From contig JAUIEX010000004.1 in assembly GCA_030429725.1 (NCBI GenBank), forward strand, positions 1 through 59,606: 59,606 bases of DNA, written 5' to 3'. The DNA is from Alphaproteobacteria bacterium. GTDB taxonomy: Bacteria > Pseudomonadota > Alphaproteobacteria > Rickettsiales > UBA8987. A program made the position numbers and the translations under genes. Positions 1-59,606 of this stretch are shown here, piece by piece. The notes beneath the pieces are model-generated. The model made no database searches, was not told the origin of the DNA, and saw nothing but the letters and a program-made list of their open reading frames with translations. Every line of letters begins with the position of its first letter. The first letter of the stretch is position 1.

Positions 1-2931
1 CTCACCCTGCGCGGCCTGAACGTCATCGCGGAAACTGCAAAAAACGATGATGAACCCTTCACCGAATCCCAGCTTGAAAAATATGGGCTGGTGAACTTAC
101 GCATCATCCAGTGGTTGAAGGTGACCGGCAAGCTGATCAAGCAGGAAGAATATAAGCACTCCTACCCCCATTGCTGGCGGACGGATACGCCGATTATCTA
201 TAAGGCGATGAGCAGCTGGTATGTGGCGGTGACGGAGATTAAAGACCGCATGGTGGAACTGAACCAGAATATCAACTGGATCCCGAACCATATTAAAGAC
301 GGGCAATTTGGCAAATGGCTGGAAAATGCCCGCGATTGGAGCATTTCGCGCAACCGCTTCTGGGGCTGCCCGATTCCCGTCTGGCGCACCGAATCCGGCA
401 AGGTGAAGGTGTTTGGCTCTATCAAAGAAATCTGTGATTTCTTTGATGTTGATAAAGAAAATAGCTCCCCCCTTGAGGGGGAGCAGACGAAGCAAGCTGC
501 GCAAGTAGCGAAGCAGAGTCGTGGGGGGGTGTCCGAGGAACAGATTGCCCCCCCACCGAGTCGCTCCGCTCCTCGACTCCCCCTCCAGGGGGGAGTTAGT
601 GAAGCGCGGTCAGGAGACCGCGCCAGCCCTGAGCATGCGGAAGCATCGCTCTATGAGAAAGACAGAAGTCTTTCTCGGGAGCAATCAAAAAAAGACATCC
701 TCCACAAACCCTTCATCGACTCGCTAACAAAAGTTGACCCGGAAACCGGGGAAACCTGGACACGCGTTTCCGATGTGTTTGATTGCTGGTTTGAATCCGG
801 CTCCATGCCTTTTGCGCAAATTCACTACCCGTTTTGTTTATCTAGCTCCCCCCTGGAGGGGGAGTCTGAATTTTCATCTGAGAATTCAGGTGGGGGTCAA
901 ATTTTTACGGAGAGTACCCCCCCCACCGAGTCGTCCGCTTTCGCTTCGCTACAGCGCGACTCCTCGACTCCCCCGCATTTTGATAGCGCCACGCACATGC
1001 GTGCTTCGGCGCATCAAGGGGGGAGTTATCCCCTTCCTCCCAACTTCCCGGCGGATTTCATTGTGGAATATGTGGGGCAAACACGCGGCTGGTTCTATAC
1101 GCTGATGGTGCTTTCCACCGCTTTGTTTGACCGTGAACCGTTCAAAAACTGCATCTGCCACGGCATCATTCTGGCCGAAGACGGCAAGAAGCTCTCCAAG
1201 AAGCTGAAAAACTACCCCGACCCGAACGAAATGTTCGACGCCTACGGCGCGGATGCCATGCGCTGGCGGATGATTAAAGAGCCGATCATGCAGGGCGGAA
1301 ATTTGCAGATCTCCAAGGACGGCAGCTGCATTCGTGATGTGGTGCGCCTTTCCATCAAGCCGATCTGGAATGCCTATCATTTCTTCAGCCTCTATGCCAA
1401 TGCGGACGGGGTGAAGGCCTATAATCTGCTGGAGATTGCCGAGGCGGAGGATGAGGACAGCGCCACGGGCGGCATCTGCTGTGGCGGGGCGCACGGTGCG
1501 GGTGAGCATCCGCTTTCTGATAATCTGCTGGATCGTTACATTCTGGCCAAGCTGGCAGGCGCGGTTCGCCAGATTAGCAAAGCGCTGGATGCTTATGATA
1601 CACCCACTGCCTGCAAGGCCGTCGATAGCTTCTTCGAGGTGCTGAATAACTGGTATATCCGCCGCTCCAGAGAGAGATTTTGGCGGAGCAATGTTGAATT
1701 GTCTCCGGGAAGTTCTACTGAACTTCCCATGAGACGGGGCTCAGGGCTGAGCTCGCCTACTGGCTCGCAGCTTAACTCTCAAAGTTCTGTCGGGGAGGCC
1801 AGCAGGCCGACCGAGCCGTCAGCGCGCGCAAGCGCCGCTCCATGTGATGTTCAGGAAGAACATCACGGGAGCATCGAAAAAGACCCCGACAAACAAGCCG
1901 CGTATGATACGCTCTATACCTGCCTGATTACCATGACAAAAGCCGCTTCGCCCTTGCTGCCATTTACGATGGAGGCGGTGTATCGGGGATTAACAGTGAG
2001 CAGTGAGCAGTTAGCAGAATCGTCATCGCGAGCGAGCGAAGCAAGCGACGCGATCTCTGGATTGCCACGTCGCAACGATGTTGCTCCTCGCAATGACGGA
2101 GAAAAACAGCATACTGCAAACTGCACGCTGCAAACCTCCTTCTCCGTTCACCTCCAGCCTTTCCCGGATGTTTCCGGCGTTTCGGCAGAAACGGAGCTGG
2201 TGCGCGCAATGGATATGGTGCAGGAGGTGTGCACGGCGGCGCTTGCCGTGCGTGACCGGGAGAATATCCGCATTCGCCAGCCGCTCTCCAACGTGATGGT
2301 GGTGGGAAAGGATACCAACCAATTAGGTCAGTTTGATGATTTGATCCGTGATGAGCTGAACGTGAAAGGGCTGGTACTTTCCCAAAGTCTGGATGAGATC
2401 GCCGATCTGCAACTGAAGCTGGATTTCAAACTGCTTGGTAAGCGGCTGGGCGGGGCAATGAAGAATGTGGCGGCTGCCGCCAAGCAGGGCAACTGGCAGA
2501 AACAGGAAGATGGCTCCGTGATGGTGGAAAATGAAGTGCTGCACGCCGATGAATTTGACCTGACACTGGCCATTAAAGACGGGGTGCTGCAGGATTATCA
2601 AAAGGCGGAGGCGCTGCCTTCCAACGGCGCGATTGTGGTGCTGGATACGCGCATTTCCGAGATGCTGCTGAAAGAAGGCATCGCACGTGATGTGGTGCGC
2701 ATGATCCAGCAGGCGCGGAAAGATGCCGATCTGCAGGTAACGGATCGCATCCGCCTTTCCGTGCAGGCGCCGGATGAGGTGAAGGCTGCCATTGAGGCAA
2801 ATCTGGATTATGTTAAAGCGCAGGTGCTGGCGGCCGATCTTGCCTTCACCTCCGCCAATGACCAGCCGCACACCGTGACCCAAAAACTGGGCGAAGCGGA
2901 GGTGACATTGGCCTTTGCGGCGGTGGCGTAA
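1..2931 (+). CDS. ileS: Isoleucine--tRNA ligase, type 2 (5'-partial), with four in-frame repeat insertions
   Basis: Frame open from base 1. Motifs HSYPHCWR, DWSISRNRFWGCPIP, DVFDCWFESG, GQTRGWFY, KLSKK (KMSKS equivalent) and a type-2 C-terminal domain. Non-IleRS segments at about 463-690, 844-1027, 1690-1875 and 1994-2135. Confidence 0.96.
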   Translation, partial: LTLRGLNVIAETAKNDDEPFTESQLEKYGLVNLRIIQWLKVTGKLIKQEEYKHSYPHCWRTDTPIIYKAMSSWYVAVTEIKDRMVELNQNINWIPNHIKDGQFGKWLENARDWSISRNRFWGCPIPVWRTESGKVKVFGSIKEICDFFDVDKENSSPLEGEQTKQAAQVAKQSRGGVSEEQIAPPPSRSAPRLPLQGGVSEARSGDRASPEHAEASLYEKDRSLSREQSKKDILHKPFIDSLTKVDPETGETWTRVSDVFDCWFESGSMPFAQIHYPFCLSSSPLEGESEFSSENSGGGQIFTESTPPTESSAFASLQRDSSTPPHFDSATHMRASAHQGGSYPLPPNFPADFIVEYVGQTRGWFYTLMVLSTALFDREPFKNCICHGIILAEDGKKLSKKLKNYPDPNEMFDAYGADAMRWRMIKEPIMQGGNLQISKDGSCIRDVVRLSIKPIWNAYHFFSLYANADGVKAYNLLEIAEAEDEDSATGGICCGGAHGAGEHPLSDNLLDRYILAKLAGAVRQISKALDAYDTPTACKAVDSFFEVLNNWYIRRSRERFWRSNVELSPGSSTELPMRRGSGLSSPTGSQLNSQSSVGEASRPTEPSARASAAPCDVQEEHHGSIEKDPDKQAAYDTLYTCLITMTKAASPLLPFTMEAVYRGLTVSSEQLAESSSRASEASDAISGLPRRNDVAPRNDGEKQHTANCTLQTSFSVHLQPFPDVSGVSAETELVRAMDMVQEVCTAALAVRDRENIRIRQPLSNVMVVGKDTNQLGQFDDLIRDELNVKGLVLSQSLDEIADLQLKLDFKLLGKRLGGAMKNVAAAAKQGNWQKQEDGSVMVENEVLHADEFDLTLAIKDGVLQDYQKAEALPSNGAIVVLDTRISEMLLKEGIARDVVRMIQQARKDADLQVTDRIRLSVQAPDEVKAAIEANLDYVKAQVLAADLAFTSANDQPHTVTQKLGEAEVTLAFAAVA
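463..597. repeat. Family A palindromic element, complete copy, in ileS
   Basis: AGCTCCCCCCTTGAGGGGGAGC...G-run...C-run...GACTCCCCCTCCAGGGGGGAGTT; closely similar to 49501-49647. Confidence 0.93.
601..682 (-). repeat. Family B three-hairpin element in ileS
   Basis: Hairpins GCGCGGTC/GACCGCGC, GAGCATGC/GCAT(C)GCTC and GAGAAAGAC/GTCTTTCTC. 623-682 matches the reverse complement of 50101-50160 at 54/60 nt. Confidence 0.92.
844..1027. repeat. Family A element in ileS with a 39-nt insert nested in its right terminal hairpin
   Basis: AGCTCCCCCCTGGAGGGGGAGTC...CCCCCCCCACCGAGTCG...GACTCCCCC[975-1013]TCAAGGGGGGAGTT. Confidence 0.9.
1706..1768 (+). repeat. Family B element (middle hairpin missing) in ileS
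   Basis: GGGAAGTTC-TACT-GAACTTCCC-ATGAGACG...GCTCAGGGCTGAGCTCGCCTACTGGCTCGC; similar to 50686-50757. Confidence 0.88.
1794..1869 (-). repeat. Family B element in ileS, inverted relative to 1706-1768
   Basis: 72/76 nt identical to the reverse complement of 50594-50669; encodes [25 protein letters not shown] in both genes. Confidence 0.95.
1994..2134. repeat. Heptamer-repeat arms enclosing a GTCAT(C/T)GCGAG...CTCGCAATGAC palindromic element (2021-2098) in ileS
   Basis: CAGTGAG CAGTGAG CAGTTAG on the left and CTGCAAA CTGCACG CTGCAAA on the right. Internal terminal inverted repeat CGTCATCGCGAG / CTCGCAATGACG matches at 11/12. Confidence 0.85.
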
Positions 2932-32286: not shown

Positions 32287-34503
32287 TTAAGTGTGAACCA
32301 CCGTTTGTTCTTGCATCATTTCTTTTTGTTGTTGCATGAAGTCTTTCTCACCCTTCTCGCCATTTTTTTCACGGAATTTTTTACGGAGTTCTTCACCTTT
32401 GAGTTGGCTGGTGGTTAAATTGGCCATGGCTTGCTCGGGTGTCAGCGCCGGGTCAACATGGCCTTTTTGAATGCGCACGGCCGCTTCCGGATTTGCAGCC
32501 ATGGAGCCACCGACCCGCACCACCTGCTCATTCGCAATATTGGCAGCAAAATTCGTCGATTTATCCCCAGGCGTTGAGTTGCCGGGCAGGCCATTGATAT
32601 CCACATTGCTCACCGTCACCCCGGCAAATGCATTGCCCGGCACCGCGCCGGCATCACTTGATATTCCCACATCGGCGCTGCTTAATTTCCCTCCCTTCTT
32701 ATCAATTTTTTCGTTCATTTTCTCCAGCTTCGCTTCCAGCTCTTCCAGCTCATTGGCCGCGCCGCGCTTCATTTTCCCACTTTTTTTATAATTATCCGGG
32801 TCGGCTTCCAGCGCATCAATCTGCTGCTGAATCTCTTCCGCCTCGCCTTCCAGCCTGTCCATGCGGCGCTCCTGCCGTTCTTCCTGCTGCTCCTGCCGTT
32901 CTTGCTGCTGCTGACCTTTTTTAACATCCCGCACCGCGCCTTTTGGGTTCACCTTTGCTTGCTTGTCCTGCGCTTTTTCCTGCGATGCTTCTGTTCGCTG
33001 ACTTTGTTTTCCGGCACGATCCAGTGCGGCATCAAATTCTTTCTGAAGCATTTCAGGTGTCACCTCTTTCAGCCCTTCATTTCCAAGGCTTTTTGCTACA
33101 AAATTTGCTTCTTGTGGGTGTTTCTTAGCAAATTCTGAAAATATTCTCATAGACTCATGATTCATCCCGGCAACCGACATCTGATGTGCAATTGTCTTGA
33201 CATTTTCCACCGCGGCGGTGTGGTTTGCTTCTTTGATAACGCCATCTGCAAGTGATTGATCAAGCAGCTTGATCTGACCATCTCTATATTCGGCAATATC
33301 TTTCACAAGCTGCGCCTGGCGCTGCTCCGGCGTTAAATTGGCGCGTTCTGCCAGATGCTGGGTGGTTGCCGGCTCCTTGCCGTTTAACTTATCCCAGCCG
33401 GCGCTTAAATCATCGCTAATGCTCTGCCCGCTCACACCGTTTTCATTATGGTGCTTCTTGCCCTTGAATAATAAGAGCGCACCGCCAATCAACACCACCG
33501 GCACAATCAATTTCTTCAGCAGGCCACCCAAACCGCCCAACATACCACCCAGGCCGCCTTTGCCGCCCTTGCCGAAAATTCCAAAAGCAAGCGCACCCAC
33601 CGCACCCAGCAGGCCAAGCTTGCCCCATTCCGGGCCATCGCCGTCGCCAATGCCCAGCGTGTCTTTCATCCAGTCTTTCGCGCGCTCAAAAAAGCTTTTT
33701 TCCTGGTCATCGCCTTTTTCTTTGTCTTTGGCGGCAGCTTGCTTGCGCTTTTCTTCTTCTATCTCTGCCTTGGTCATCGGGGCGGTGGAAAGTTCATCCT
33801 TCACATATTCCCGCGCTTTGATATCCGCCGGCACGTCGGAACTGGCCGGCAGTGTGGATGTAAACGTCACCAGCTCTTTCTTTGCCGCGCGCGCTTCGTC
33901 AATAAAGCTCTTACCTGTTTTGCTTTTGCCCTCCAGCGTGGCCACCTCCCCGCTCTCATGATGCACCATCACAAATTGCAGATTGCCATTGGCCAGATCG
34001 GGGGAATTATCCGCATTGCGCTTCAGCGTCAGGCGGAAGCCGGCCTCTTCAAATTTTTCAATGGATTTCAGCTGGGCATCGGTGAAATATTTCCCCAGAT
34101 CCACCGCGGCGTCCTGATTGCCCGTCACCCGTGGGTTGTTGGAACCGGCAATGCTGCCCTCTTTGCCATCCCCCGTGCCGAACAGGGTGAAGCCAAAGGC
34201 ACCTTCCGTCACATCATCGGTGAATTTTGCGGCTTTATCCGCCACCCTTCCCCCGGTGCGCGACAGGGATTCTCCAAGCGCTTCCCCCGTGCTAATATTC
34301 GGGTTTTCGGCTCTCACCGCCTTATAATCGTCAATGGCGCCGCTCTTATCGGCCACCACCACATAGGCAGCCGTGCCTTTCGTTGCAACATCTGTCACAG
34401 TTTTCACGCCTTTCACCGTTTTCGCGCTGGCGCCAAACATTTCCGCCACACCGCCGGCCACTTTCGGAACCACGCTGAATAATGCTTTAATTGCTCTAAA
34501 CAT
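32287..34503 (-). CDS. Hypothetical 738-aa protein with Gly-rich hydrophobic hairpin and coiled coils
   Basis: GGAG RBS; TM-like GLLGAVGALAFG...VVLIGGALLLF segments; Q/E/K-rich coiled regions. Confidence 0.8.
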   Translation of the reverse strand: MFRAIKALFSVVPKVAGGVAEMFGASAKTVKGVKTVTDVATKGTAAYVVVADKSGAIDDYKAVRAENPNISTGEALGESLSRTGGRVADKAAKFTDDVTEGAFGFTLFGTGDGKEGSIAGSNNPRVTGNQDAAVDLGKYFTDAQLKSIEKFEEAGFRLTLKRNADNSPDLANGNLQFVMVHHESGEVATLEGKSKTGKSFIDEARAAKKELVTFTSTLPASSDVPADIKAREYVKDELSTAPMTKAEIEEEKRKQAAAKDKEKGDDQEKSFFERAKDWMKDTLGIGDGDGPEWGKLGLLGAVGALAFGIFGKGGKGGLGGMLGGLGGLLKKLIVPVVLIGGALLLFKGKKHHNENGVSGQSISDDLSAGWDKLNGKEPATTQHLAERANLTPEQRQAQLVKDIAEYRDGQIKLLDQSLADGVIKEANHTAAVENVKTIAHQMSVAGMNHESMRIFSEFAKKHPQEANFVAKSLGNEGLKEVTPEMLQKEFDAALDRAGKQSQRTEASQEKAQDKQAKVNPKGAVRDVKKGQQQQERQEQQEERQERRMDRLEGEAEEIQQQIDALEADPDNYKKSGKMKRGAANELEELEAKLEKMNEKIDKKGGKLSSADVGISSDAGAVPGNAFAGVTVSNVDINGLPGNSTPGDKSTNFAANIANEQVVRVGGSMAANPEAAVRIQKGHVDPALTPEQAMANLTTSQLKGEELRKKFREKNGEKGEKDFMQQQKEMMQEQTVVHT

Positions 34504-47876: not shown

Positions 47877-48497
47877 TCAGCCATCCAGACCGTCACCCGC
47901 CAGATAGTTGACCAGACGGAAGCGAATATCCTGCGCCATCTCTTTTAAGATGCGGTTATTCGTATCCTGCTCGGCGGCGTAGGTGGCAAAATCGGAAGTG
48001 TCCGCCGCATCAAAACTGCCGATGATCTGGCTGCGGTCGCGCCACACCACCTCCCCATTGCTGATATCCACCAGCGCAAGGCTTGCATCAACCGTCAGGC
48101 TGAAACGCGTCACTTCCCGATCCTGCTGAATATTCAGCTCCTGCCGCTGGCGGGAAAGATCAATCCGCAATTCATGCGTTTTCGCTTCACCCTGTTTGAT
48201 CAGCAGATTTTCCAGCTCCGTCTTCAGCAACTGCCCGTCCCGCCCGGCGGGAATATTGGCCACACGCACTTTGGCCAACGCCGCCTGCACCGGCACGCTG
48301 ATGGCAGATTGCTCACTGTAAAGCGGGGTAAAGCCGCAGGAAGTGAGCAAGATACACAAGAACAGCGCCATAAAGAGAGGATATAGCTCCCCCCCATCGC
48401 ATCGGCGTGCTTCGCATGCGCCTCTGCGACTCCCCCACAGGTGGGGAGTTGAGCTAAACTCTGAACTCTGAACTCTGAACTCCGGACTCTGTCTCAT
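47877..48497 (-). CDS. lptE: LPS assembly lipoprotein LptE with a repeat insertion in the signal-peptide n-region
   Basis: Lipobox [13 protein letters not shown] overlaps the leuS TGA (ATGA); conserved leuS-lptE order. Confidence 0.85.
48385..48490. repeat. Family A right half + GAGCTAAA + (CTGAACT)n heptamers inside the lptE 5' end
   Basis: Same composite as 49576-49681. Confidence 0.88.
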
Positions 48498-51400
48498 GCT
48501 GCCACCACGTTAATAATTTTTCCCGGCACCACAATCACCTTGCGCACCTGTTTACCTTCAATGAACTTTAACACATTCTCATGAGAAAGTGCCTGTTTTT
48601 CTGCCTCTTCCTTATCCGTGCCCACCGCCATTTCCAGCGTGCCGCGCATTTTGCCGTTCACCTGCAGCGCCACCGTGACCGTCTCCTCCACCAGCAAATC
48701 AGGCAGGGCTTGCGGCCATGGCTGCCGGCAGAGCATTTCCGTGTGCCCCAATTGCTGCCAGCATTCCTCGGTGAGGTGCGGAATCATCGGGTGCAGGAGG
48801 GTGATGGCCACTTCTACGCCTTCGCGGAAAACGGCCTTGGAAGCACGCTGCTCCCGTGGCATTTTTTCCAGCGCATTGGTCAGCTCCCGCACCTTGGCCA
48901 CGGCTTTGTTATAACCGAAACGGTGCAGTTCCTGCGTCACATCGCGGATGGTGCGGTGAATCAGCTGATGCATTTCCAGCAAGCCACCGGCCAACCCCTG
49001 CAGCCAGTGTTTGCCATCCATCATGCCCAGCGGCTCCACCTCTTCCACCAACTTCCACAGCCGATCGAGATATTTGCGCGTGCCGGCCACGCCGGCATCG
49101 CTCCATTCCAGATCGCGCTCCGGCGGGGAGTCGGAGAGCATGAATAAACGCGCTGTATCGGCGCCGAAACGACCCATAATATCCTTCGGATTGACCGTGT
49201 TCAGCTTGGATTTTGACATTTTGATGGATGGGCCAGCTTTCACCGGTGCGCCCGCTTTTGTTTGGTAGCTGCCATCTCTCTGGCGGATGACCTCTTCCGG
49301 ATAAAGCCACTGGCCTGCCTCATTCTGATACGTCTCATGGCACACCATGCCCTGCGTCAACAGGGCTTTGAAAGGTTCTTTCACGTCCGTATAGCCGCAA
49401 CGGTTCAGCGCGCGGGTAAAGAACCGCGCATACAGCAGATGCAGCACCGCATGCTCAATCCCGCCAATATACTGATCCACTGGCATATAGGGTGAGGAGT
49501 AGCTCCCCCCTTGAGGGGGAGCGGACGAAGCCTCTTTTGAGGCTGAGTCGTGGGGGGGCGTTCCATCCCGCGATTGCCCCCCCACCGCATCATCTCCTAG
49601 CGCTTCGCGCTGAGGAGATTCTGCGACTCCCCCTCCAGGGGGGAGTTGAGCTAAATCCTGAACTCTGAACTCTGAACTCTGCCCCGCAAATGCCAGAAAA
49701 TACCAGCTGGATTCAAAGAACGTATCAAATGTGTCCGTCTCACGCGTGGCTTGTTTGCCGCATTGCGGGCAATCCACATCTTTCCATGTGGGATGCAGCA
49801 ATAGCGGGTTGCCCGTTTGCGTGCCGTCAATCACCACATCTTTGGGAAGGGTGACGGGCAATTGATCCTTCGGCACGGGCACTGCGCCACAATCCGCGCA
49901 GTGGATCACCGGAATCGGACAGCCCCAGTAACGCTGGCGGGAAATGCCCCAGTCCCGCAAACGGTAATTGGTTTGCCGTTTCCCGACACCAAGCGCCTCA
50001 AGCTTTTCAATGGCTGCTTGTTTCGCTTCCGAAACATTCATGCCATTCATAAAATCGGAGTTCACCAACACCCCATCCCCGGTGTAGGGCTCCTTTAACT
50101 GCTCCCGAGAAAGCCTACTGGCTTTCTCATGGAGCGCTGCTTCCGCAGGCTCAGGGCTGGGCTCGCCTGCTGGCTCGCTAACCTCTTCTCTTTTCTCTTC
50201 ACTCTTCACTCTTCGCTCTTCCGGCGCCACCACCTGTGTAATCGGCAGGCCATATTTGCTGGCGAAGGCAAAGTCGCGCTCATCATGCGCCGGGCAGGCA
50301 AAAATTGCGCCCGTGCCATAGCCCATCAGCACAAAATTGGCCACATAAACCGGCAGGGTGATGTTTGCATCCAGCGGATGCCGCACCCGCAAGCCTGTAT
50401 CAAAACCCTTCTTTTCAGCCTTATCAATCGCTTCCGTGGCGGTGCCCAGCGCAGCGCATTCAGCAATAAAATCCTGCAACTCTTTATTATCCTGCGCTAA
50501 TGCTTCCGCAAGCGGGTGCCCGGCGGCAATGCCAATGAAGGACGCCCCGAACAATGTTTCCGGCCGCGTGGTATAGACTTCGATATGATTATCCCCGTGA
50601 TGTTCTTCCTGAACATCACATGGGATGGCGCTTGCGCGCGCTGACGGCTCGGTCGGCCTACTGGCCTCCTTGGTATGATTATCTACGGGAAATTCTCCTG
50701 AATTTCCCATGAGACGATCCTTCGGATGCTCATGGCTGTGCTCGCCTACTGGCTTGCCTGCACCCTCACCTGAAAATGCTTCAGCATTTTCAGACTCTCC
50801 CATCAAGGGAGAGTGCTTATTACTCCCCACCTGTGGGGGAGTCGAGGAGTGGTCAGCGTTAGCGCCACGACTCGGTGGGGGGGAGCAAGCTGAACTCTCT
50901 ATCTGGAATCGCACCAAGGCACCTTCGGATTTGCCGATCCAGTTTTCCTGCATATGGCGCACACGCTCCGGCCATTCTTCCAGCTCACTTAAGCCCTGCA
51001 ACAGCGCTTCGGAAAAATCGGAAATACGCAAAAACCATTGCTGCAGCTTGCGCCGCTCCACAGGCGCGCCGCTGCGCCAGCCTTTACCGTCAATCACCTG
51101 TTCATTGGCCAGCACGGTCTGATCCACCGGATCCCAGTTCACTTCCGCCTCTTTGCGATAGGCCAGATCATTCGCCCAGAAATCCAGAAACATGGCCTGT
51201 TCCTGTGCATAATAATCCGGCAGGCAGGTGGCCAGCTCGCGCCGCCAGTCATAGGACAGGCCGATGGCTTTCAGTTCACCGCGCATTTCCGCGATATTGC
51301 CCAGCGTCCAGTCTTCCGGATGCAGGGGGTTATCCTGATTTTCCGGACGGGAATTATGGGCGATGGTGGCATTTTCCGCCGGCAGACCGAAGGCATCCCA

Positions 51401-51628
51401 GCCAATCGGGTGCAGCACATCAAAGCCCTGCATGCGTTTATGCCGCGCCACCACATCCCCCAGCGTATAATTCCGCACATGCCCCATATGGATTTTGCCG
51501 GAGGGATACGGGAACATTTCCAGCACATAATAAGGATTTTGTGGGTTATCCGGCGCGTGATGCACGCCGGCATCTTCCCATGCACGCTGCCATTTCGCTT
51601 CAATTATTTTGGGGTTATAATCACTCAT
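48494..51628 (-). CDS. leuS: Leucine--tRNA ligase with three in-frame repeat insertions
   Basis: [53 protein letters not shown] and KMSKS; 1044 aa from ATG 51628. Confidence 0.96.
49501..49681. repeat. Family A complete copy (49501-49647) plus heptamer tail in leuS
   Basis: Termini identical to 463-597; lies antisense relative to how that copy lies in ileS. Confidence 0.93.
50101..50221 (+). repeat. Family B element (50101-50178) plus TTC(A/T)CTC heptamers in the leuS CP1 domain
   Basis: GAGAAAGCC-TACT-GGCTTTCTC and CTGC-TTCC-GCAG hairpins; encodes [41 protein letters not shown]. Confidence 0.9.
50584..50886. repeat. Stack of four elements in leuS: B (50594-50669), B (50686-50757), A left half (50762-50815), A right half (50821-50886)
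   Basis: Each part aligns by eye to copies in ileS; 10-nt direct repeat TATGATTATC at 50584 and 50674. Confidence 0.9.
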
Positions 51629-51689
51629 AACGCTGTCTATACCCCTGCAACAGGGTTCTGACAACGGCTTGTCTTATGAAATGCGGCGC

Positions 51690-59495: not shown

Positions 59496-59606
59496 GTGAA
59501 TCTCCACGGGCCAAGGCCCGTGGTATCACGCTTCGCTACGCTCAGATTTCAAGCTGCGCTTGTCCAGAATCTTCTTTTCCCTGATGTTCGATATAACGTC
59601 TGATAA
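59496..59606 (-). mobile_element. tnpA: IS200/IS605-family element: right end and tnpA 3' end (partial)
   Basis: Minus strand 59604-59542 reads IRRYIEHQGKEDSGQAQLEI* (YIxxQ catalytic-Tyr motif). Subterminal hairpin CCACGGGCC-AA-GGCCCGTGG at 59504-59523; end TTCAC. Confidence 0.85.

What the first reader, a model, noticed from the sequence alone, without database searches (positions are those of the whole stretch)
601..682. Family B: an ~80-nt three-hairpin element with compensatory substitutions
Seen: six copies (601-682, 1706-1768, 1794-1869, 50101-50178, 50594-50669, 50686-50757). Hairpin 1 is always a 9-bp stem but with differing sequence: GAGAAAGAC/GTCTTTCTC, GAGAAAGCC/GGCTTTCTC, GGGAAGTTC/GAACTTCCC, GGGAAATTC/GAATTTCCC, GTGATGTTC/GAACATCAC, with a T(T)NCT-type loop. 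The middle hairpin covaries too (ATGC/GCAT, CTGC/GCAG, ATCC/GGAT). Between 623-682 and 50101-50160, 4 of the 6 differences form two compensatory pairs. It lacks the terminal inverted repeats of a normal MITE. Inference: structure rather than peptide is being conserved, as expected for an ssDNA- or RNA-recognised mobile unit. I do not recognise the family.
Basis: partly seen in the sequence, partly recalled or inferred. Interest (0 to 1): 0.85.

Follow-up and report, generated by a model that had tools for sequence, protein, structure and literature searches.

The report
Hairpin repeat invading essential bacterial genes
A roughly 80-base DNA repeat that folds into hairpins on one strand has multiplied through this small bacterial genome and its relatives, often sitting in frame inside essential genes, much like the palindromic elements known from Rickettsia.

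Summary
All six copies are real. A covariance model finds 43 copies in the 1.74-Mb genome, and matches in 51 of 151 sampled genomes of the same order, but in only 1 genome outside the order among 151 sampled across the class.

Compensatory changes are extensive. On 94 foreign copies, 85.5% of cells pair against 63.9% in shuffles, and 24 of 25 pairs change on both sides.

Genome-wide, 20 of 43 copies sit in 13 conserved genes, in all three sense frames and in antisense.

Non-canonical pairs are strongly one-sided (G·T 131 vs A·C 22; G·A 170 vs T·C 5), so one strand's fold is what is kept. The middle hairpin is usually a GCGN(N)AGC mini-hairpin.

There are no terminal inverted repeats, no target duplications and no Rfam match. 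Congeneric genomes show whole-unit presence/absence and compensatory change at orthologous copies.

Best reading: a non-autonomous, single-strand-recognised mobile repeat, similar to RPE and REP elements. Its enzyme is unknown: Y1 HUH transposases do not co-occur with it, and this genome has no reverse transcriptase. I rate it a new variant of a known kind.

The parts
604..684 (+). Family B copy 1, sense, in frame in ileS. H1 is 604-611/616-623 (loop 612-615). The mini-hairpin is 624-625/630-631. H2 is 635-638/643-646 (core GCGGAAGC, 637-644). The outer stem is 648-652/678-682. H3 is 655-663/668-676 (loop 664-667). An A-rich tail starts at 683.
1699..1768 (-). Family B copy 2, short form without H2, antisense to ileS but still open in the ileS frame. 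It lies head-to-head with copy 3.
1794..1874 (+). Family B copy 3, sense in ileS, H3 with a 5-nt loop. It is read in a different frame from copy 1.
50099..50178 (-). Family B copy 4, sense in leuS. It forms the insert within LeuRS residues 485-523, a stretch that 16 of 16 aligned orthologues lack.
50589..50669 (-). Family B copy 5, sense in leuS, part of the ~100-residue insert block at LeuRS 257-356. It lies in tandem with copy 6.
50679..50757 (-). Family B copy 6, sense in leuS, in the third sense frame.
1..2931 (+). Host gene: isoleucine-tRNA ligase, 5'-truncated at the window start. About 590 of its 2931 nt are dispersed repeat (458-692, 842-1028, 1698-1770, 1792-1887).
48494..51664 (-). 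Host gene: leucine-tRNA ligase, 1056 aa here against 829-841 aa in the ten full-length orthologues used for the fold. Its repeat-derived blocks are 49500-49680, 50094-50178, 50586-50758 and 50761-50883.

Best explanation
Family B is a non-autonomous, copy-and-paste repeat of about 70-82 nt. It occurs across one order of Alphaproteobacteria; public MAG records that hold it are titled Rickettsiales or Alphaproteobacteria bacterium. One defined strand folds into four parts: a 7-8 bp hairpin H1 (loop AGNA closed by C-G, often with a tandem G.A/A.G); a 2-bp mini-hairpin; an optional GCGN(N)AGC mini-hairpin H2; and a 9-10 bp hairpin H3 of the same loop type, held in a 5-bp outer stem and followed by an A-rich tail. 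That single-stranded fold, most likely in DNA, is what the copying or maintenance machinery recognises. Stems are therefore free to change as long as they still pair. New copies land without terminal inverted repeats or target duplications. They land in intergenic DNA (mostly at gene 3' ends), next to the 5' end of an existing copy in inverted orientation, and in permissive loops of genes. In genes, only copies that leave the frame open survive, and these are translated as disordered inserts. Shown: the fold, its strand bias, amplification within the lineage, in-frame residence, unit gain or loss between species, and distribution across the order. Inferred: that the intermediate is DNA rather than RNA, that inserts are translated, and the enzyme, which is unidentified.
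For: Copy number and spread: 43 copies in the genome. Matches in 51 of 151 order genomes, 39 of 105 genera. At class level, 3 of 151 genomes match: this one, one of the same order, and one other with 10% contamination. Structure. Strand bias of non-canonical pairs: G.T 131 vs A.C 22 and G.A 170 vs T.C 5 in other genomes; 34 vs 7 and 73 vs 2 here. H2 matches GCGN(N)AGC in 22 of 30 long copies here and 30 of 43 elsewhere; that motif is described as an extraordinarily stable DNA mini-hairpin (PMC13037366, abstract seen in the listing). No terminal inverted repeats or target duplications: the longest shared flank word averages 4.6 nt vs 4.4 in controls. Recent amplification: 34 of 36 copies have their best match inside this genome, 87.5% vs 62.9% identity. 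Mobility between two genomes of one genus: two sites where a whole unit of about 80 nt is present in one and absent in the other. Structural constraint in place: orthologous copies differ by compensatory pairs. Adjacent pairs: 11 head-to-head, 8 tandem, 0 tail-to-tail. In genes: 20 of 43 copies in 13 conserved genes, and 22 of 94 copies elsewhere lie in ORFs of at least 250 aa. All three sense frames and antisense frames are used. The LeuRS inserts are absent from 16 of 16 aligned orthologues and fall at indel-prone loops. Orientation is not tied to host transcription.
Against: No enzyme was found. Y1 HUH transposases occur in 31 of 151 order genomes but in only 8 of the 51 that carry the element, against about 10 expected by chance. 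The two Y1 genes of this genome are about 4 kb from the nearest copy and are flanked by different hairpins. No conserved target tetranucleotide lies 5' of the element; information there is at most 0.3 bit per position. Orientation relative to GC skew is only 20 vs 10, and it is confounded by gene strand and by clustered copies. G.U pairs, tandem G.A and GNRA-like loops also suit RNA. No strain-level filled/empty pair was available, so the exact ends and target are not fixed. Translation of the inserts is not shown. The foreign copies were picked by a pattern and a structure-aware model, which favours paired copies.
Confidence: 0.55

Rival explanations
1. It acts as RNA. Either it is a structured cis element or small RNA made from the forward strand, or it is a retro-mobile unit copied through an RNA intermediate, which would also explain the A-rich 3' tail.
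For: The one-strand fold carries G.U pairs, tandem G.A and GNRA-like loops. A short covarying hairpin suggests a compact fold. There is an A-rich tail. In genes there is a sense bias of 28 vs 12.
Against: No reverse transcriptase was found in this 98%-complete genome. Intergenic copies have no fixed orientation to neighbouring genes: the gene on the 3' side is on the opposite strand 40 times and on the same strand 18 times. Of 40 in-gene copies, 12 are antisense. No Rfam family matches. GAA and GCA triloops closed by C-G dominate H2, and these are DNA-type mini-hairpins (abstracts of PMC13037366 and PMC3201870 in the listing).
Confidence: 0.17
2. It is a host-serving DNA motif, for example a binding site or a replication/repair signal. 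It is kept by selection and homogenised by gene conversion rather than moved by a dedicated enzyme.
For: Orthologous copies persist between species at 75-83% flank identity, with compensatory changes. Modules are exchanged between copies: H3 is swapped and H2 is gained or lost at one orthologous site. No transposase correlates with the element.
Against: New copies appear at new sites, including inside essential genes where orthologues have nothing. Whole units are gained or lost. Copy number ranges from 1 to at least 28 among genomes of the order, and 100 of 151 genomes have none. A benefit from inserts inside aminoacyl-tRNA ligases is hard to see.
Confidence: 0.13
3. It is a protein-coding module: a repeated peptide selected at the protein level.
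For: Twenty of 43 copies are in frame in genes.
Against: All three sense frames and antisense frames are used, giving unrelated peptides. About half of the copies are intergenic. Covariation follows base pairing, not codons. Stop-free frames number about 3 of 6 per copy, against 2.6 expected.
Confidence: 0.02

Closest known systems
Rickettsia palindromic elements (RPEs)
   Same: Both are short dispersed palindromic repeats found in intergenic and protein-coding DNA. Both are inserted in frame in unrelated housekeeping genes, including aminoacyl-tRNA ligases, with lineage-specific proliferation and no known transposase (passages read in PMC1779305, PMC1458961 and PMC10969869). The host group appears to be the same broad order, judging by record titles.
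   Different: RPEs are given as 100-150 bp, with a conserved encoded peptide for each family. Family B is 70-82 nt and is read in every frame. It has a defined multi-hairpin fold on one strand, and it is found in environmental genomes of about 32-70% local G+C. Sequence relatedness to the RPE families could not be tested, because no RPE sequences or models were at hand and PMC186582 is not held.
REP / REPIN elements with RAYT (TnpA-REP)
   Same: Both involve a hairpin recognised as single-stranded DNA, strand-specific imperfections, inverted doublets, and long persistence with within-genome populations (abstracts of PMC3116915, PMC8266576 and PMC3733652 in the listing).
   Different: REPs are 20-40 bp, extragenic, carry a conserved tag at one end, and sit beside a single-copy RAYT gene. 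Family B is longer, has 3-4 hairpins, is often intragenic, has no conserved end tag, and shows no link to Y1 genes.
IS200/IS605-derived miniature elements
   Same: Both lack terminal inverted repeats and target duplications, and both have hairpins near both ends read on one strand (abstract of PMC6006769 in the listing; the rest is recalled).
   Different: No cognate TnpA with matching ends was found and no conserved target word. TnpB is absent here.
In-frame MITEs of other bacteria (review PMC10969869)
   Same: Both are small non-autonomous elements that can fuse in frame with host ORFs (passage read).
   Different: Classical MITEs have terminal inverted repeats and target duplications. Family B has neither.

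Membership tests
Rickettsia palindromic elements | Dispersed palindromic repeat in both intergenic and coding DNA that leaves host ORFs open | tested here: met
   20 of 43 copies lie in 13 conserved genes, all open.
Rickettsia palindromic elements | Length of 100-150 bp (PMC1779305) | tested here: not met
   Core length is 68-80 nt.
Rickettsia palindromic elements | A conserved encoded peptide for each family (PMC10969869) | tested here: not met
   Three sense frames and antisense frames are used.
Rickettsia palindromic elements | Sequence match to the RPE-1 to RPE-10 models | not testable with these tools
REP/REPIN-RAYT | A 20-40 bp single palindrome with a conserved tag at one end | tested here: not met
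   The element is 70-82 nt with 3-4 hairpins, and the 5' flank holds at most 0.3 bit per position.
REP/REPIN-RAYT | Inverted doublets | tested here: met
   11 head-to-head pairs, 0 tail-to-tail and 8 tandem.
REP/REPIN-RAYT | A cognate Y1 (RAYT) gene in genomes that hold the repeat, flanked by it | tested here: not met
   Only 8 of 51 element-bearing genomes have a Y1_Tnp gene. Here the two Y1 genes have other hairpins at their ends.
IS200/IS605-derived miniature element | No terminal inverted repeats, no target duplication, end hairpins read on one strand | tested here: met
IS200/IS605-derived miniature element | A conserved target word next to the left end, and a matching autonomous element | tested here: not met
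   The search for split ends was too insensitive to count.
Classical MITE | Terminal inverted repeats and target-site duplication | tested here: not met
Any Rfam RNA family | Score at or above the gathering threshold | tested here: not met
   0 matches in the window. In 50050-50800 only three chance-level matches, with E above 3.

The most novel reading that the evidence does not exclude
Family B is a previously undescribed, order-wide class of single-strand-folding mobile DNA. It is propagated by an enzyme that is not a Y1 HUH transposase, TnpB, a reverse transcriptase or a common DDE transposase; possibly it is a core host function acting on folded lagging-strand DNA. It extends the colonisation of essential proteins by selfish DNA, so far tied to Rickettsia, to a whole order of environmental bacteria. 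In two pilin-like genes it may even supply the start codon.
Probability: 0.3. Interest if true: 0.85.

Novelty: new variant of a known kind. Interest (0 to 1): 0.68.

Why it matters
How RPE-type repeats enter and survive inside essential genes, and what moves them, has been open since 2000. This family gives that question a well-defined handle: a compact fold whose active strand is known, many independent lineages, filled and empty sites between congeneric species, and a clear negative result for the obvious transposase candidates. It also matters in practice. About a fifth of ileS and leuS in this genome is repeat-derived, which inflates protein lengths, breaks assemblies at the copies and can mislead annotation and phylogenomics of these MAG-only lineages.

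Tried and rejected

Databases: Rfam gave nothing at gathering thresholds and only chance-level rows in E-value mode. A blastn of one copy against plasmids gave no match. Of 5 pattern matches in viral contigs, only 1 was a real copy.

Near strains: the metagenome scan with a LeuRS piece gave relatives of at most 72% identity. No strain-level filled/empty comparison was therefore possible.

Sequencing runs: no RNA holder is listed. The laid runs are contigs. X1 and X2 look like one data set; they match the window exactly and break at the repeats, and the joints listed there are most simply other copies. Nothing on expression or polymorphism follows from this.

Candidate enzymes: in this genome TnpB, RVT_1, IS110, DDE_Tnp_1 and DUF559 were not found. 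There are two rve matches and two Y1_Tnp matches. The genome is 98% complete, but repeats may be unassembled. The TLC search rang in no control genome, so it says nothing.

Autonomous parent: a search for a longer element with separated 5' and 3' halves failed, because a sequence-only model of the variable 3' hairpin is insensitive. This is inconclusive.

Start codon: I tested whether the element's ATG generally starts genes. Only 2 of 36 copies fit.

Terminator role: rejected by reading, because the A-run follows the hairpin on the forward strand, so on the other strand the T-run precedes it.

Integron attC-like sites: considered by eye only, and I saw no matching end motifs. This was not formally tested.

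Split genes: genes that would point to RNA-level removal of the element were looked for only by listing neighbouring ORFs. None was obvious, and this was not tested further.

AlphaFold: the LeuRS model has pLDDT below 50 exactly over the three insert blocks. Those columns have no alignment depth, so this is weak support for disorder.

Papers: PMC186582 is not held. Supplements of the RPE papers (the RPE tables) were not opened and may bear on RPE lengths and frames. The statement that I found no published description of this family rests on searches only.
Full report
**What is at the coordinates.** Three of them (1706, 50101 and the two after it) are written in the finding on the strand opposite to the element's own orientation. 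Once turned, all six align over about 80 nt. An iterated nhmmer search of the 1.74-Mb, 74-contig genome found 43 copies. A covariance model built from 36 of them (A1, R1) found the same number, and only these six in the window.

**The fold.** Read 5' to 3' on the element's forward strand, the parts are as follows.
- H1 is a 7-8 bp hairpin with loop AGNA closed by C-G.
- A 2-bp mini-hairpin (S-A, loop GCCN, T-S') follows. Its outer pair is C-G in 65 copies and G-C in 27.
- H2 is an optional short hairpin.
- A 5-bp outer stem encloses the 9-10 bp hairpin H3. H3 has the same loop type as H1 and a conserved T.G next to a bulged A.
- The tail is GCAA followed by an A-rich run.

On the 36 copies of this genome, 88.6% of cells pair against 70.6% in shuffles, and 12 of 15 pairs of the H3/outer helix change on both sides. 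I also aligned 94 copies from other genomes with MAFFT, without any structure. There 85.5% of cells pair against 63.9%, 24 of 25 pairs change on both sides, the covariation score is 0.547 against 0.167, and no shuffle or slid register comes near. Those 94 copies had been picked with a pattern and a structure-aware model, which favours paired copies. Mutual information computed blind to the structure recovers the same stems.

**One strand matters.** Where a stem position is not Watson-Crick, it is nearly always G.T or G.A on the forward strand. The counts are G.T 131 vs A.C 22 and G.A 170 vs T.C 5 in other genomes, and 34 vs 7 and 73 vs 2 here. On the complementary strand these would be A.C and C.T mismatches.

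The G.A cells form a tandem G.A/A.G in the middle of H1 (CGAGG...CCGAG), and in some genomes in H3 as well. H2 matches GCGN(N)AGC in 22 of 30 long copies here and 30 of 43 elsewhere, with GCGAAGC the commonest form. That motif is described as an extraordinarily stable DNA mini-hairpin (PMC13037366; d(GNA) loops in PMC3201870; abstracts seen in the listing). Nearest-neighbour folding does not separate the two strands, because it does not credit these motifs.

**Where the copies sit.** All six window copies lie inside ORFs. Three are in a 5'-truncated isoleucine-tRNA ligase (1-2931) and three are in leucine-tRNA ligase (48494-51664, minus strand).

Genome-wide, 20 of 43 copies lie in 13 conserved genes: ileS, leuS, cysS, uvrD-like, recG (four copies), uvrB, carB, thiC, nadE, ubiD, an FtsX-type permease, a SpoU methylase and cinA. 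Every one leaves the frame open.

The copies are read in all three sense frames (4, 5 and 4 copies) and in antisense frames (5 copies). The same holds for 22 in-gene copies of other genomes, so no peptide is conserved. A copy has about 3 of 6 frames free of stops, against 2.6 expected. The element is therefore not built to be coding-neutral; selection simply removes the copies that break a gene.

LeuRS here has 1056 residues, against 829-841 in the ten full-length orthologues of related genera used for the fold. The extra length comes in three blocks at positions where the orthologues themselves vary in length, and 16 of 16 aligned orthologues lack the inserts. An AlphaFold model shows a confident core and pLDDT below 50 over exactly those blocks. 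This is weak evidence, since the blocks have no alignment depth. About a fifth of each ligase gene is dispersed repeat, from Family B and other families.

**Distribution.** The model finds the family in 51 of 151 sampled genomes of the same order, covering 39 of 105 genera. In a sample of one genome per family across the class, only 3 of 151 match: this genome, one of the same order, and one other with 10% contamination.

Of the 80 loci whose titles were shown, 65 were confirmed by the model. All 65 are MAG records titled Rickettsiales, Alphaproteobacteria or Rhodospirillaceae bacterium, or carry an Azospirillum label. The 15 unconfirmed loci include the records from other phyla. Elsewhere in the order, 22 of 94 copies lie in ORFs of at least 250 aa, so invasion of genes is general.

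**Mobility.** Of 36 copies, 34 have their closest relative inside this genome, with mean best identity 87.5% against 62.9% to 94 foreign copies. Several copies share identical stems, so the family multiplied within this lineage.

Two complete genomes of one genus (G104 and G150) share three loci at 75-83% flank identity. At two of these loci one genome has a head-to-head pair and the other has only one member. The difference is one whole unit of about 80 nt.

The shared copies differ by compensatory pairs: one pair in H1 and two in H2 at one locus, and one pair in the outer stem at another. At the third locus the 5' half is kept, H2 is present in one genome only, and H3 differs at 4 of 8 pairs, all compensated. 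That looks like exchange of a module between copies.

Among neighbouring copies within 300 nt there are 11 head-to-head pairs, 8 tandem pairs and no tail-to-tail pair. There are no terminal inverted repeats and no target duplications.

**What moves it.** This is not settled. The genome has two Y1 HUH transposase genes. One belongs to a multi-copy IS200-like element whose own end hairpins sit at contig ends, including the end of this window. The other has different hairpins again. Neither is next to a Family B copy.

Across the order, only 8 of the 51 carriers have a Y1 gene, where about 10 would be expected by chance. TnpB, reverse transcriptase, IS110-type, DDE_Tnp_1 and DUF559 genes were not found here.

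Orientation is not tied to neighbouring genes. The forward strand lies on the G-rich strand 20 times against 10, which fits exposure on the lagging-strand template. However, this count is confounded by gene strand and is not significant.

**Reading.** The evidence fits a selfish, non-autonomous repeat recognised as a folded single strand. DNA is more likely than RNA, for three reasons: the mini-hairpin motif, the lack of a reverse transcriptase, and the indifference to transcription direction. In behaviour it is closest to the Rickettsia palindromic elements (passages read in PMC1779305, PMC1458961 and PMC10969869). In likely mechanism it is closest to REP/REPIN and IS200/IS605-type elements. 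It fails defining features of each of these (see the membership table).

I found no description of it in three full-text searches. I file it as a new variant of a known kind.

Noticed in passing
window 458-600, 842-1028, 49500-49680, 50761-50883: Other dispersed repeat families, with up to 9-19 further genomic matches per base and C-run/G-run hairpins, are inserted in frame in the same ileS and leuS genes, some directly abutting Family B copies. Two partial Family B copies elsewhere (C7:20506, C68:40112) carry such a hairpin in place of H1, so modules of different families are joined.
   Followed up: partly
window 59504-59523; also C63:61972-62483 and several contig ends: This 20-nt hairpin is the end of a multi-copy IS200-like element that carries only a Y1 transposase gene. 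Its two end hairpins occur at 12 places, mostly within 100 nt of contig ends, so the element probably breaks the assembly.
   Followed up: partly
G000 C66:33197-33286 and 33787-33878 (L067 1198-1287 and 1788-1879, minus strand): Two neighbouring ORFs appear to start at the ATG just before H3 of a Family B copy. The ORF at 33787-33878 has a pilin-type N-terminal hydrophobic segment; the one at 33197-33286 is hydrophobic but less clearly pilin-like. If so, the element would supply the start codon and a short leader.
   Followed up: partly
L317 9962-10041 (an IMG/VR contig of 14.3 kb): One genuine Family B copy (56 bits) lies on a contig filed as viral. It could be a prophage or a misfiled bacterial fragment.
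   Followed up: no
G274 C1:147-226 and C28:2717-2796: This is the only genome outside the order with matches in the class sample. It has 10% contamination, so the copies may belong to a contaminant.
   Followed up: no
G030, G064, G138 (family f19 of the order): These complete genomes of about 2 Mb have at least 27 scored Y1 transposase copies each (up to 222 candidates) and no Family B copy. That is the opposite pattern to the one a Y1-driven Family B would predict.
   Followed up: no
G104/G150 loci L296 and L291: At an orthologous copy, the H2 mini-hairpin is present in one species and cleanly absent in the other. The long and short forms therefore interconvert in place.
   Followed up: partly
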